The notes under the pieces are model-generated. The model saw only the letters and a program-made list of their open reading frames with translations, made no database searches and had not been told where the DNA came from. From positions 1 to 61,586 of the forward strand of contig JAGSHN010000024.1 in assembly GCA_029855935.1 (NCBI GenBank): a stretch of 61,586 nt of DNA. The letters are read 5' to 3'. Shown here one piece after another: positions 3,622-7,013 of this stretch. Origin of the DNA: Candidatus Thorarchaeota archaeon. GTDB lineage: Archaea; Asgardarchaeota; Thorarchaeia; Thorarchaeales; Thorarchaeaceae. The position numbers were made by a program, and so were the translations under genes. Numbering within the stretch: position 1 is the first letter of the stretch; every line of letters begins with the position of its first letter.

Positions 3622-4035
3622 TCATTCTCTCGGTGGCCGAGGAAGACTCACTGCCGTCTCGAGGTCGACGATCCAGCGGTCGAGCTCATGACTGATTGAT
3701 TGGACGTATTCGGCGAGACTCTCAAAGTACCTATGAAGATGCGATTGCGTCGATGACTTGTACTTCTCTCTGTAGTCCTTCACACGCTGGGGGAGCCCGA
3801 TTGTCCATCTGCTCAGTGTTGCAGTCAATGTCCGATCGTCGATGAGTCTCCGTGCGGTCCTGGAGCTTCTCGCAAGCTCGATCATCCTCTCAAGCTGGTC
3901 CTGCATTCGAATCAGGCCTGCCACGAGCTGCTTCGAGTCGCTCTTCGTGTCGGCATCGCGAGCAGTGTAATAGACGTGTTTGAGGTGGCGCTTGCAGTTG
4001 CCCACCTCTCTCAGAAAGCCTGTGATGGCCTGCAT
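3622..4035 (-). CDS. Hypothetical helical protein
   Basis: 137-aa ORF filling the gap downstream of the Cas4-like pair; amphipathic helical pattern; no family recognised. Confidence 0.6.
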   Translation of the reverse strand: MQAITGFLREVGNCKRHLKHVYYTARDADTKSDSKQLVAGLIRMQDQLERMIELARSSRTARRLIDDRTLTATLSRWTIGLPQRVKDYREKYKSSTQSHLHRYFESLAEYVQSISHELDRWIVDLETAVSLPRPPRE

Positions 4036-4080: not shown

Positions 4081-4728
4081 TCATCTTGACACGGAGTGCG
4101 GACAGATGTCCGCAGAGAAGGGGCAACGTCCGCATCTGTCGCGACGCGAGGCGGGTCTTGCGTCTCTCTGGCCCCTCCAGTAGCCCTCCATCGCCTTGAG
4201 TTTCCGTTCTGTGAGAGCTCTGTCGTATCTTGCTGTACTGACCCTGGCCTTTCCGCAGGAGATGCAGTGCTGAAGGTCCCTGTTTCTACACCTCTCCGCA
4301 TTTGTCTGGGCACAGTACACCACGACGGCAAGTGCATTGTCACATTGCAGTCCCATCTCCTCAAGCGCGAGGGCGTAGAGCGAGGCCTGGAAGAGGTCCT
4401 CACTATGGGCTGTCCTGGGGACCTGCACGCGAGGGAACTTCATCTCAATGACAGCATCAAGAGTCAATGCAGCCCCCTTCGACACAACGATATGGTCGGC
4501 TCTTCCGACATAGCCCCACCTTCGCGACTCAACACTCAACTCGCTGAGCACGTATCGCCCTGCTAGTGTCTTCGGGTCAGCCAGACTTCTCAGCCCTCCT
4601 CTCAACGGCGTAGCGCCCGTGAGAAGTTTGCTCAGTCCGATGTATTCTCTGGCAATAGCAACAACGACGAGCAACAGGAACGTGATGAGCAGAAGGAGCG
4701 GGAACACACCGTCGGCTAGTGGCGTCAT
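4081..4728 (-). CDS. Membrane-anchored Cas4-like PD-(D/E)XK nuclease (C-terminal part)
   Basis: N-terminal TM helix; GRAD, IEMK and QxxLY motifs; terminal CxxC-x6-C; extra 4-Cys insertion. Confidence 0.82.
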   Translation of the reverse strand: MTPLADGVFPLLLLITFLLLVVVAIAREYIGLSKLLTGATPLRGGLRSLADPKTLAGRYVLSELSVESRRWGYVGRADHIVVSKGAALTLDAVIEMKFPRVQVPRTAHSEDLFQASLYALALEEMGLQCDNALAVVVYCAQTNAERCRNRDLQHCISCGKARVSTARYDRALTERKLKAMEGYWRGQRDARPASRRDRCGRCPFSADICPHSVSR

Positions 4729-4991
4729 CCTGCAGGCCCCCAGAGGTATAACAGCACGAGCAGGATGAGCGTGACGAGAATTACGATGGCAATATTGCTC
4801 ATTGTGCCTCTGCGTCGTCTGTCCGCCGGGCGAATCTCTCTGTGGAGACGCGTCCCGACAAGGGCCTCCCTAGTGGCCTCCGTCCGGATGATCTTGTCGA
4901 GATACAGGAAGTACTCACAGAAGTATTGCTGTTTCAGCTCTGAGACCGTTCTGGTCCTGCCCGAATGGGCGTCAGCCGTCCTACGAGTCAT
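4725..4991 (-). CDS. Small membrane protein carrying the Cas4-like N-terminal segment
   Basis: VSELKQQYFCEY...GTRLH followed by a C-terminal TM helix; ATGA overlap with the next ORF. Confidence 0.75.
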   Translation of the reverse strand: MTRRTADAHSGRTRTVSELKQQYFCEYFLYLDKIIRTEATREALVGTRLHREIRPADRRRRGTMSNIAIVILVTLILLVLLYLWGPAG

Positions 4992-5202
4992 CTCGATACG
5001 ACGTTTGCACAGCCTCTTTTAGCCACCACTCATCGGTGCAAAGTGTGTCTCCGCGCCGCCGATAGCGTCCGTCCTAGTTTTGTTTATATCCCGATGTGTG
5101 AACGCCGCCCACGTGGGACACTTGTCCGAGAGTCCTTCGGAGCTTCATTTATATTGAAGGGGCGAGATGTCGCCATGGAGTGTCCCGTTCCTGGAAAGGA
5201 AC

Positions 5203-5646
5203 ATGCTGGTGAAGATGATAATGACCGAGGAGAATGCATACGAGGGTGCAACAGCGGGTAGGTTGCTGGACTTCACGGACTCGAACACGATTGAGTTCCC
5301 TGAGTCCTTCAAGGCGGCTCTCGGGACCGACCGTGCACTGATGGTTCTCGTCTACAAGGACAAGCAGGTCCGCATCTTTCCTCTTGAGAGTGATGAGGTC
5401 TATTATCTCAGTATAGTCATAGGGAGACTCACGAACGATTTCCTGACACAGCTGTCAAGAACCTTCAAGGACTACGGTCTTGTCGATCTGTTGTATTCAA
5501 CGGGAGTCTGCCTCCGTGGCACCAAATGCTACTATGAGTGCTACTTCGCTCCACACCAGCTCACAGGTTCCTCCGACGATCTCGGTAGAGCGCTCAACTC
5601 CCTCGACGGAGTCGTGTCTGTGGTCATCGAACCCGTGAAGACATAG
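5203..5646 (+). CDS. Putative AbrB/SpoVT-like plus ACT-domain regulator
   Basis: DSNTIEFPESFKAALG resembles an AbrB-like N-terminus; the C-terminal beta-alpha-beta-beta-alpha-beta pattern ends LNSLDGVVSVVI (ACT-like). Start moved to ATG 5203. Confidence 0.55.
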   Translation: MLVKMIMTEENAYEGATAGRLLDFTDSNTIEFPESFKAALGTDRALMVLVYKDKQVRIFPLESDEVYYLSIVIGRLTNDFLTQLSRTFKDYGLVDLLYSTGVCLRGTKCYYECYFAPHQLTGSSDDLGRALNSLDGVVSVVIEPVKT

Positions 5647-5754
5647 AAGCCTTGAAATGGCTGGCGATACAGGCCCAACACCCAGGCCGTGCCCCGAACC
5701 ATCGTGGTGGTTTCCCTCGCAGCGTACGTACATCAGCATAACGGTGGATCTACA

Positions 5755-6414
5755 ATGCAGGATCTTCTCCAGTTCGTCACCGACCTTATTCTTCAGGGGT
5801 ACCTTGGTCTGTTTCTTGCCTGCTTTCTCATCAATATGATACCCTTTCTTAGTCCCAGCAACATGGTACTTGCTGGTGTCGCATCTCTGTTGCTCCCGTG
5901 GATGAACTGGGTCTTGGTCGGCATCACAGTGGCCGTGGCTGCCACGCTTGCAAAACTCATCCACTACTTTGTGGTCCGTGGGTCCAGAATTGTTCTGTCG
6001 GAGGAGCGTCTTGCTGCACTCGAGTCGGAACGCGAGCGGGTGAACAAGTGGGGCGCCCTCGCACTCTTCATAGCTGCAGCCTCTCCGGTCCCTGACGACC
6101 CGTTGATAGTGTACGTTGGGCTGACACGATACAGCGTCAGCAAGTTCCTGTTCTTCTACTTCACCGGAAAAGTCTTGGTCACACTGGCAGGCGCGCTGAT
6201 TGGGTACACAGTTGGAGGCTACTTCGAGTCAATGCCCATAGTTGTTGCGTCGATTGCACTGACGGCTCTCATAACGGGCTACCTCTTCAAGCGTAAGACT
6301 GAGAAGGACGAGTCAGATCTCCTTCAGGACATCCTTGAGGAGGAGATCCGGCACTCTCACGACGATGGCGAGGCGAGAAATTCCGCTAGTGACCCCCATC
6401 GCCGAGAATGGTGA
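5755..6414 (+). CDS. VTT/DedA-family membrane protein
   Basis: Multi-TM; IPFLSPS and AASPVPDDPL...G...Y motifs. Start at ATG 5755. Confidence 0.85.
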   Translation: MQDLLQFVTDLILQGYLGLFLACFLINMIPFLSPSNMVLAGVASLLLPWMNWVLVGITVAVAATLAKLIHYFVVRGSRIVLSEERLAALESERERVNKWGALALFIAAASPVPDDPLIVYVGLTRYSVSKFLFFYFTGKVLVTLAGALIGYTVGGYFESMPIVVASIALTALITGYLFKRKTEKDESDLLQDILEEEIRHSHDDGEARNSASDPHRREW

Positions 6415-6617
6415 GAACCAGCAGGACATCGGTGGAGCGCTGTGAGCCTCGCCGCGGGGAACGCAGGTTCTGCAGCCGATTGTGGAGTCCGTCCTGCTGC
6501 GGCTCCTCTGTTTTCTGTCTCGTGGTATCTGTACAGACGATGAACAACAATCGGTGCATGACCGCACAATTCATAAGAACCGTACCGAGAACTCCGCTAT
6601 GATTCAGGTGGCGTAGG

Positions 6618-7013
6618 ATGCCGGGTGTCAAGACTACCGAGGTCGAATGTGAAAAATGCGGTCACAGGTTCGAGGCCACCGTCATCGACCACGTGGATCT
6701 CACGGAGGACCGCGACCTGCTGAAGAAGGTCAAGAGTGGCAAGGTGAACCGAGTTCAGTGTCCGAAGTGCAAGAAGGTGATGTTCCTGCAACGCAGCATC
6801 GTCATCAACTTCGAACCGGAGAGTCTGATTGTCCTCTACGACCCCGCCGCCACGGACTCCGAGCGCCGGGAGGAGTTGGAGCGCGACTACAAGACAGTGG
6901 TCACATACAATGAGGTCCTTGAGGAGATAGGCGAGGAGATCGACTTCCGAATCATCTCGGATCTCACCGAGTTGAAAAAGCTGGTCACAACCTACGAGAA
7001 GAATCACAGCTGA
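6618..7013 (+). CDS. CpXC-domain (Zn-ribbon) protein
   Basis: CEKCGHRF...CPKC with the typical spacing; SD-like CAGGTG upstream. Confidence 0.8.
   Translation: MPGVKTTEVECEKCGHRFEATVIDHVDLTEDRDLLKKVKSGKVNRVQCPKCKKVMFLQRSIVINFEPESLIVLYDPAATDSERREELERDYKTVVTYNEVLEEIGEEIDFRIISDLTELKKLVTTYEKNHS

What the first reader, a model, noticed from the sequence alone, without database searches (positions are those of the whole stretch)
4081..4991. Cas4-like nuclease split into two membrane-anchored polypeptides
Known: Cas4/AddB Fe-S staples use one N-terminal Cys (S...YC...G..H) and three C-terminal Cys. Seen: the first motif (VSELKQQYFC...GTRLH) is in an 88-aa ORF ending in a TM helix. The nuclease motifs and CxxC-x6-C are in the next ORF, which starts with a TM helix. 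The two are joined by an ATGA overlap in different frames. There is also a C-x7-C-x7-CxxC insertion, and no CRISPR array or cas1 is nearby. Inference: a heterodimeric membrane exonuclease assembled through a shared 4Fe-4S cluster, possibly processing incoming DNA.
Basis: partly seen in the sequence, partly recalled or inferred. Interest (0 to 1): 0.72.

Follow-up and report, generated by a model that had tools for sequence, protein, structure and literature searches.

The report
Split membrane-anchored EXO5/Cas4-like nuclease pair
In one family of Asgard archaea (Thorarchaeota), an iron-sulfur DNA nuclease of the EXO5/Cas4 type that is normally one soluble protein is encoded as two coupled genes, each with a membrane helix at the break, so the enzyme probably forms only when the two chains meet on the inner face of the membrane.

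Summary
Two minus-strand ORFs (88 aa, 4725-4991; 215 aa, 4081-4728) share an ATGA overlap. The first ends in a transmembrane helix and the second starts with one.

The split is real. In 50 of 51 distinct orthologous loci the small gene is a separate ORF directly upstream. It lies in three different relative frames and is never fused.

A profile of unsplit single-chain relatives hits only these two ORFs in the 2.97-Mb genome, in collinear order. The small chain carries the first Fe-S cysteine (C25) and the RecB motif I histidine (H50, a metal ligand in SSO0001). The large chain carries motifs II, III, QxxxY, three C-terminal cysteines and an invariant extra C-x7-C-x7-C-x2-C.

The pair is restricted to one Thorarchaeota family (70/85 genomes, 0/314 elsewhere in the phylum). 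It is unrelated to the genome's own cas4-cas1 and was lost cleanly in some genera, so it is dispensable. Its cellular role is unknown.

The scan has already reported this same pair in at least eight other Thorarchaeota genomes. I found no paper that describes it.

The parts
4725..4991 (-). Small subunit gene (88 aa): cytoplasmic N-terminal piece of the nuclease plus a C-terminal tail-anchor helix.
   Evidence: ORF list. 18 aligned orthologues have invariant V16 L19 Q22 C25 L31 G46 L49 H50. hhalign to the N-terminus of unsplit relatives gives prob 96.8%, E 2.7e-10. The profile of unsplit relatives hits it at positions 25-72, E 9.5e-5.
4842..4946 (-). VSELKQQYFC(25)EY...GTRLH(50): first Fe-S cysteine and RecB motif I histidine.
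   Evidence: Translation. It aligns with V(T/S)DL..Q..CE...G..IH of human EXO5 residues 52-100. In SSO0001, Cys32 is a cluster ligand and His62 a metal ligand (PMC4176176). The Cys-to-His spacing is 25 residues here and 30 there.
4737..4793 (-). TM helix 1, at the extreme C-terminus of the small subunit (3-residue tail).
   Evidence: KD19 is 2.93 here and 2.2-3.5 in all 18 orthologues, with tails of 0-4 residues.
4725..4728 (-). ATGA start/stop overlap coupling the two genes.
   Evidence: Sequence. NTGA overlaps or gaps under about 40 nt in the 18 orthologous loci examined.
4081..4728 (-). Large subunit gene (215 aa): N-terminal signal-anchor helix plus the PD-(D/E)XK core and the C-terminal cysteine triad.
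   Evidence: Sub-threshold matches: Pfam PDDEXK_1 E 2.7e-4 and TIGR00372 cas4 E 6.8e-6. hhalign to unsplit relatives gives prob 99.4%, E 1.7e-21. 70/85 genomes of the family have it.
4651..4707 (-). TM helix 2, near the N-terminus of the large subunit. A short neutral or acidic N-terminus lies before it and a basic stretch after it, which predicts N-out, C-in.
   Evidence: KD19 is 3.12. In 17 of 18 orthologues the net charge of the 15 residues after the helix is positive, and the N-terminal stub is <= 0 in 17 of 18.
4375..4542 (-). Catalytic core: E63, G75-R-x-D78 (motif II), E95-x-K97 (motif III), Q114-xxx-Y118.
   Evidence: These residues are invariant in 32 sequences. They align with the GvID, ELK and FQvSLY motifs of human EXO5.
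4255..4314 (-). Family-specific insertion C139-x7-C147-x7-C155-x2-C158, a probable second metal site.
   Evidence: All four cysteines are invariant in 32 sequences. The insertion is absent from unsplit relatives.
4102..4134 (-). C199-x2-C202-x6-C209, the C-terminal three ligands of the iron-staple cluster. It is preceded by the YW.G.R.P motif typical of EXO5-like proteins.
   Evidence: Invariant. Aligned to CRTCTYADIC of human EXO5.
3622..4035 (-). Downstream co-directional 137-aa helical-bundle gene. It is a conserved neighbour, not an obligate partner.
   Evidence: Present in 49/51 loci. It is also kept in genomes that lack the nuclease pair. AlphaFold2 pLDDT 94, all-helical, no informative fold match.

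Best explanation
The two genes encode the two halves of one EXO5/Cas4-type 'iron-staple' PD-(D/E)XK nuclease.

The small protein is tail-anchored (N-in, C-out). It supplies the N-terminal helices with the first Fe-S cysteine and the motif I histidine. The large protein is anchored by an N-terminal helix (N-out, C-in). It supplies motifs II, III and QxxxY, the three C-terminal cysteines and an extra four-cysteine site. Both soluble parts face the cytoplasm.

The enzyme, its metal-binding active site and its Fe-S cluster can only be completed when the two chains pair at the membrane, probably through their transmembrane helices. The expected activity is metal-dependent cutting of single-stranded DNA ends (5'-3' in EXO5), confined to the inner face of the membrane.

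Shown: the genes, the conserved split, the collinear homology, the conserved residues and the hydrophobic helices.

Inferred: heterodimer formation, the shared cluster, the topology and the nuclease activity.

Unknown: the cellular role. The pair is dispensable (several clean losses), so an accessory role such as handling DNA at the membrane is more likely than an essential one.
For: - Split conserved: 50/51 distinct loci, relative frames +1 (25), +2 (23) and same frame with a stop (2), none fused.
- Complementary homology: small chain to positions 22-102 and large chain to positions 101-249 of unsplit relatives.
- A profile of unsplit relatives finds only these two ORFs in the whole genome, in order.
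- A joint profile matches human EXO5 at E 1.3e-8 in two collinear stretches.
- Invariant C25 and H50 on the small chain. Invariant D78, E95, K97, Q114, Y118 and seven cysteines on the large chain.
- Transmembrane helices and the charge pattern are conserved.
- Literature: SSO0001 uses His62, Asp99 and Glu113 for the metal and Cys32 plus three C-terminal cysteines for the cluster (PMC4176176). In EXO5 a [4Fe-4S] region joins N- and C-terminal cysteines (PMC8710748).
Against: - No experiment supports the reading. No multimer model or coordinates were available, so Cys geometry and the interface were not measured.
- The model is of a 33%-identical relative, artificially fused by reading through its stop, and its alignment rows for the two halves are mostly unpaired.
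- Neither ORF reaches any curated Pfam or NCBIfam cut-off on its own.
- Some Cas4 enzymes stay active without the cluster (Pcal_0546, PMC4176176), so the cluster need not be the assembly device.
- Topology rests on hydrophobicity and the positive-inside rule only.
Confidence: 0.8

Rival explanations
1. Assembly or sequencing frameshift, or a recent pseudogene: the two ORFs are really one broken gene.
For: The ATGA overlap in different frames is what a single-base indel could produce.
Against: The same two-ORF layout occurs in 50 distinct orthologous loci from independent assemblies, in three different relative frames. Both parts are under clear purifying selection, shown by invariant catalytic and Cys residues at about 30% overall identity. 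An exhaustive HMMER search found only 190-252-aa in-family proteins.
Confidence: 0.01
2. Programmed recoding (frameshift, or UGA read-through or selenocysteine) makes a single polypeptide with a transmembrane hairpin.
For: The small ORF ends in TGA in 16 of 18 orthologues. Two lineages have the halves in the same frame, separated by one TGA. Asgard archaea are known to use UGA for selenocysteine (PMC11227280, seen in the listing).
Against: The relative frame differs between relatives (+1, +2, 0), so no single recoding mechanism fits. TGA is simply the commonest stop here: 32 of 50 long ORFs in the window. The large ORF has its own start codon at or next to the stop in every locus examined. No fused protein appeared in either database search.
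Confidence: 0.03
3. The large chain is a self-sufficient membrane-anchored nuclease. The small protein is only a regulator or an unrelated membrane peptide.
For: Motifs II, III and QxxxY are all on the large chain. Cys mutants of Pcal_0546 and SSO1391 keep activity without a cluster (PMC4176176).
Against: The small chain is homologous to the N-terminus of unsplit enzymes. It keeps exactly the cluster cysteine and the metal-binding histidine invariant. The large chain keeps the three partner cysteines invariant although it lacks a fourth ligand at that site. The model docks the small piece where Cas4 and EXO5 have their N-terminus. The two genes are gained and lost together.
Confidence: 0.1
4. 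It is a CRISPR adaptation Cas4 or part of a mobile anti-virus defence island.
For: There are weak matches to Cas4 models (TIGR00372, and PADLOC Cas4 at E 3.9e-8). The best structural match is Cas4. The pair is dispensable within the family.
Against: The genome has its own canonical cas4 next to cas1 on another contig. The pair sits at one fixed place in a conserved housekeeping neighbourhood (CpXC, VTT/DedA, a 159-aa gene, aRF1) in essentially all loci. That pattern fits vertical inheritance in one family. No other defence gene is attached.
Confidence: 0.06

Closest known systems
EXO5 / Exonuclease V family (Pfam PF09810; human EXO5, PDB 7LW7-7LWA) and its single-chain prokaryotic relatives, including those of other Asgard archaea (L093:1143-1925, L094:1286-2110)
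   Same: - Same order of motifs: V(S/T)(D/E)L..Q..CE, G..(L/I)H, G..D, E.K, FQ..LY, YW.G.R.P, C..C...C.
- The [4Fe-4S] region joins N- and C-terminal cysteines (PMC8710748).
   Different: - Here the chain is cut after motif I.
- Each end at the cut carries a transmembrane helix.
- A four-cysteine insertion is added.
- Neither piece reaches the Pfam cut-off, whereas the unsplit Asgard relatives do (36.9 and 32.6 bits against a cut-off of 25).
Cas4 (Pfam PF01930 / TIGR00372; SSO0001 4IC1, Pcal_0546 4R5Q, type I-C Cas4 8D3L, Cas4-Cas1 7MI5) and solo-Cas4
   Same: - RecB-like fold with an iron staple: one N-terminal and three C-terminal cysteines.
- Motif I His, motif II Asp and motif III Glu-x-Lys bind the metal (PMC4176176).
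- Best structural Z (15.7).
   Different: - No cas1/cas2 or array context.
- Sequence matches are far below the curated cut-offs (26 bits against 65).
- Two chains, membrane-anchored.
- The genome's real Cas4 is elsewhere.
AddB / AdnA / Dna2 iron-staple nuclease domains
   Different: Those are domains of large soluble helicase-nuclease machines. Here there is no helicase, and the enzyme is split and membrane-bound.
Enzymes with an Fe-S cluster bridging two subunits (for example the nitrogenase Fe protein dimer; from my own knowledge)
   Same: Cluster ligands would come from two polypeptides.
   Different: Those are symmetric homodimers with 2+2 ligands. Here the division would be 1+3 between unlike chains of one ancestral domain. 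This is not tested here.

Membership tests
RecB-like PD-(D/E)XK 'iron-staple' nucleases (Cas4/EXO5/AddB/Dna2 group) | RecB motifs II (D), III (E-x-K) and Q-h-x-x-Y. | tested here: met
   D78, E95, K97, Q114 and Y118 are invariant in 32 orthologues. They align to the same motifs of human EXO5.
RecB-like PD-(D/E)XK 'iron-staple' nucleases (Cas4/EXO5/AddB/Dna2 group) | Motif I histidine (metal ligand) downstream of the N-terminal cysteine. | tested here: met
   H50 of the small chain is invariant in the 18 aligned orthologues and lies 25 residues after C25. In SSO0001 the pair is Cys32 and His62 (PMC4176176). It lies on the other polypeptide.
RecB-like PD-(D/E)XK 'iron-staple' nucleases (Cas4/EXO5/AddB/Dna2 group) | Four cluster cysteines: one N-terminal, three C-terminal (C-x2-C-x5/6-C). 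| tested here: met
   C25 is on the small chain. C199, C202 and C209 are on the large chain. All are conserved. They are split between two chains.
RecB-like PD-(D/E)XK 'iron-staple' nucleases (Cas4/EXO5/AddB/Dna2 group) | RecB-like fold. | tested here: met
RecB-like PD-(D/E)XK 'iron-staple' nucleases (Cas4/EXO5/AddB/Dna2 group) | Bound Fe-S cluster and nuclease activity. | not testable with these tools
   Needs purified protein.
EXO5 (Pfam PF09810) | Score above the curated Pfam cut-off (25 bits). | tested here: not met
   - Large chain: 11.3 bits.
- Small chains: best E 0.013, in 4 of 18.
- The unsplit Asgard relatives do pass.
EXO5 (Pfam PF09810) | Collinear EXO5 motif set, including Y-W-x-G-x-R-x-P before the cysteine triad. 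| tested here: met
   GYWRGQRDARP precedes CGRC. The profile aligns to YWMGHREP...CRTCTYADIC of 7LW7.
Cas4 (PF01930 / TIGR00372) | Score above the curated cut-offs. | tested here: not met
   TIGR00372 scores 26 bits against a cut-off of 65. PF01930 is matched by 1 of 32 members, at E 0.0088.
Cas4 (PF01930 / TIGR00372) | Association with cas1/cas2 or a CRISPR array (CAS-Cas4). | tested here: not met
   The only Cas1 match and a canonical Cas4 lie on contig C29. The neighbours in 38 loci are CpXC, VTT/DedA, a 159-aa gene and aRF1.

The most novel reading that the evidence does not exclude
The split is functional, not just tolerated. Because the cluster ligands and the metal ligands are divided 1+3 and 1+2 between a tail-anchored chain and a signal-anchored chain, the nuclease is inert until both are inserted side by side in the membrane. 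This would be a built-in safety catch that confines a DNA-end-degrading enzyme to the membrane.

The non-covalent closure between the two chains may also let the DNA channel, which in EXO5 must be threaded from a free end, open sideways onto DNA held at the membrane. That DNA could be entering, viral, or trapped at division.

This would be the first iron-staple nuclease with an inter-subunit Fe-S cluster and the first membrane-integral member of the group.
Probability: 0.25. Interest if true: 0.8.

Novelty: new variant of a known kind. Interest (0 to 1): 0.62.

Why it matters
Iron-staple nucleases (Cas4, EXO5, AddB, Dna2) are known as soluble single-domain units. In them the Fe-S cluster ties the N- and C-terminal ends of one chain together.

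Here evolution has cut that domain exactly between the first ligand and the rest and has put a membrane helix on each cut end. This gives:
- a natural test of what the cluster does, namely holding the two parts together;
- a rare case of an active site and a cluster that would be shared between unlike chains;
- a DNA nuclease fixed to the cytoplasmic membrane of an Asgard archaeon, a group whose membrane and DNA biology bears on the origin of eukaryotes.

It also shows that gene callers and Pfam miss both halves, so the family is unannotated.

Tried and rejected
- Fused forms: a word-indexed search with the small-ORF alignment among longer proteins found nothing (weak evidence). The exhaustive HMMER search with the large ORF found only 190-252-aa in-family proteins and distant unsplit relatives.
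- A first joint alignment (A4) misplaced the small chains' helices. It was replaced by A5, which uses truncated small chains.
- Third gene: Pfam, NCBIfam, PADLOC, a PDB profile search, the ESM Atlas and Foldseek gave nothing informative, only generic helical bundles. I first took it for a third subunit. I rejected that because it persists where the pair is deleted.
- Model coordinates are not exposed, so Cys-Cys distances and the interface could not be measured.
- Literature searches for a split or membrane-anchored Cas4/EXO5 found no such description, in the Cas4 phylogenomics paper PMC5704561 and the Asgard defensome paper PMC13700489 among others.
- Recoding and frameshift readings were rejected (see rival explanations).

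Full report
**1. What is in the sequence**

On the minus strand an 88-aa ORF (4725-4991) and a 215-aa ORF (4081-4728) overlap by ATGA and lie in different frames.
- The small product reads ...VSELKQQYFC(25)EY...GTRLH(50)... It ends in a 19-residue stretch of mean Kyte-Doolittle hydropathy 2.93, followed by only three residues.
- The large product begins with seven residues, then a helix of hydropathy 3.12, then a basic stretch. Nothing else in it exceeds 1.2.
- The large product also has C139-x7-C147-x7-C155-x2-C158 and C199-x2-C202-x6-C209.

**2. The organism and the range of the pair**

The window is contig C10 of a 2.97-Mb, 97%-complete genome. All 38 related loci in the named genome collection are Asgard archaeal MAGs or unnamed archaeal MAGs. 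Most are titled Candidatus Thorarchaeota, three are titled Promethearchaeota and one Hermodarchaeota.

With a profile of the large ORF, 70 of 85 genomes of the same family have a full-length match. None of 314 genomes from the rest of the phylum does. Five of those give weak partial hits, and the two I read in full are soluble single-chain relatives.

An exhaustive HMMER search of 1.8 billion representative proteins found only 20 clusters at E <= 1e-10. They are 132-252 aa long, most about 190-250.

**3. The split is real and conserved**

I built HMMs of both parts and scanned all stop-to-stop frames of 86 fetched loci, which contain 51 distinct sequences. In 50 of the 51 the small gene is a separate ORF directly upstream of the large one. 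The remaining locus is cut by a contig end. None is fused.

The relative frame of the two genes is +1 in 25 loci, +2 in 23, and the same frame with an intervening stop in 2. Junctions are NTGA overlaps or gaps of a few to about 40 bases. This rules out a sequencing indel and any single recoding mechanism.

TGA ends most of the small ORFs, but TGA is also the commonest stop in this window (32 of 50 long ORFs).

**4. The two products are the two halves of one nuclease domain**

- *Profile comparison.* The weak tail of the exhaustive search consists of unsplit 246-296-aa proteins that match Pfam Exo5 and PDDEXK_1. Profile-profile comparison puts the small-ORF alignment on their positions 22-102 (probability 96.8%, E 2.7e-10). 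It puts the large-ORF alignment on positions 101-249 (99.4%, E 1.7e-21).
- *Whole-genome test.* A profile of these unsplit proteins, searched over the whole of the window's genome, hits exactly two places. These are the large ORF (profile 86-248, E 2e-27) and the small ORF (profile 25-72, E 9.5e-5).
- *Match to a solved structure.* A joint profile matches human EXO5 (7LW7) at E 1.3e-8 in two collinear stretches. One covers V-T-D-L..Q..C-E...G..I-H. The other covers GvID, ELK, FQvSLY, YWMGHREP and CRTCTYADIC.
- *Curated thresholds.* Individually, neither ORF reaches any curated Pfam or NCBIfam threshold.

**5. Which residues sit where**

In the 18 aligned small chains, V16, L19, Q22, C25, L31, G46, L49 and H50 are invariant.

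In 32 large chains, E63, G75, D78, E95, K97, Q114, Y118 and all seven cysteines are invariant.

In SSO0001 the metal is held by His62, Asp99 and Glu113, and the cluster by Cys32 plus Cys188, Cys191 and Cys197 (PMC4176176). By homology, the small chain therefore contributes one of four cluster ligands and the motif I metal ligand. Both the cluster and the active site should be composite. This is inferred, not measured.

**6. Structure**

Two lineages (L006, L007) have the halves in one frame, separated by a single TGA. Reading that stop through gives a natural 303-residue 'fusion'. I modelled it with an alignment of both halves and the unsplit relatives.

AlphaFold2 gave pLDDT 88.3 and pTM 0.85, with 92-96 over the small chain's soluble part and a helical hairpin at residues 62-80 and 86-107.

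The small piece is thus placed where these enzymes have their N-terminus.

Caveats: the model is of a relative about 33% identical to the window's proteins and is artificially joined. Most alignment rows are unpaired.

**7. Topology**

In all 18 orthologues the small chain's helix is at the extreme C-terminus, with a tail of 0-4 residues, so it is a tail anchor. The large chain has a stub of 0-10 residues in 17 of 18 orthologues (25 at the start codon chosen for L009). The stub's net charge is <= 0 in 17 of 18. After the helix the net charge is positive in 17 of 18.

By the positive-inside rule both soluble parts face the cytoplasm. The two helices would lie side by side like a hairpin cut in its outer loop.

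**8. Context and dispensability**

The genome has a canonical cas4 next to cas1 on contig C29, so this pair is not the CRISPR Cas4.

In nearly all loci the order is: CpXC gene, VTT/DedA gene and a 159-aa gene on one strand; then small, large and a 137-aa gene on the other strand; then a convergent aRF1.

The 137-aa protein is a confidently predicted helical bundle with no informative relative. It is not an obligate partner:
- It is present in 75 of 85 family genomes, including genera that lack the nuclease.
- In four such genomes the pair is cleanly missing between the 159-aa gene and the 137-aa gene.

In one genome (G022) the 5' half of the small gene has been replaced by a TnpB-like insertion.

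The pair is therefore vertically inherited at a fixed site but has been lost several times, which means it is dispensable.

**9. Origin**

Other Asgard genomes carry unsplit, soluble EXO5-family genes with the same motif order, above the Pfam cut-off. One of them is ATGA-coupled to a NurA-domain gene, which is a DNA-end-resection setting.

The Thorarchaeota form is best read as a derivative of such a gene. It gained a membrane hairpin after motif I, was cut in the loop, and gained a four-cysteine insertion.

**10. Function**

- Most likely (about 0.8): a two-chain, membrane-anchored, metal-dependent nuclease acting on single-stranded DNA ends. It would be assembled through its helices and a shared cluster.
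- The biological role is open. Candidates are handling of DNA that enters or is held at the membrane, or a membrane-confined repair step.
- The fixed housekeeping neighbourhood argues against a mobile defence island. The repeated losses argue against an essential role.

**11. Novelty**

I found no description of a split or membrane-integral Cas4/EXO5 in the papers searched.

The scan itself has reported the same pair in at least eight other Thorarchaeota genomes, with the same reading. I reached mine before seeing those notes and tested each point here.

I file the pair as a new variant of a known kind.

Noticed in passing
window 3622-4035 (-): A 137-aa protein (KR.LKEVYYT.R ... W..GLP.RV.D(Y/F) ... 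PRPP) found in 75 of 85 genomes of the family, 23 of 23 high-quality ones. It is confidently predicted as an all-helical bundle and has no recognisable relatives. In genus g12, which lacks the nuclease pair, its W..GLP.RV motif has diverged.
   Followed up: partly
L090:1-576 (G022:C80): The 5' half of the small-subunit gene is replaced by the end of a TnpB/Cas12f-like gene (PF07282, E 3e-16). Only the part from just before the G..LH motif to the TM helix remains. This looks like a natural knock-out of the small chain with the large chain intact.
   Followed up: partly
L097, L098, L099, L100 (G015, G018, G007, G029): The nuclease pair is cleanly absent between the 159-aa gene and the 137-aa gene in genera g12 and g15 and in part of g4. 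In other loci (L002, L003, L005, L011, L015, L018) a roughly 400-aa multi-pass membrane protein that looks like an MFS transporter (not scanned against Pfam) is inserted at the same spot. The intergenic site is therefore variable.
   Followed up: partly
L093:70-1925 (G106:C377): In another Asgard family, an unsplit soluble EXO5-family gene (260 aa) overlaps by ATGA with an upstream NurA-domain gene (PF09376, E 8e-10). This suggests a role in DNA-end resection.
   Followed up: partly
window 5167-7013 (+): A conserved divergent neighbour block: a 159-aa protein with no Pfam match (CxxGxxCxxxC-like motif near its end), a VTT/DedA-family membrane protein (PF09335) and a CpXC zinc-ribbon protein (PF14353). 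The block is syntenic in nearly all Thorarchaeota loci.
   Followed up: partly
window 5014-5019 (-): A TAAAAG, TATA-like element lies at -30 to -25 from the small gene's ATG. That spacing would fit a leaderless transcript starting at the small gene. Read by eye only.
   Followed up: no
G000:C29:126326-127658: The genome's canonical cas4 (PF01930, E 7e-44) sits directly next to cas1 (PF01867, E 2e-86). This is the CRISPR adaptation module, far from this window.
   Followed up: no
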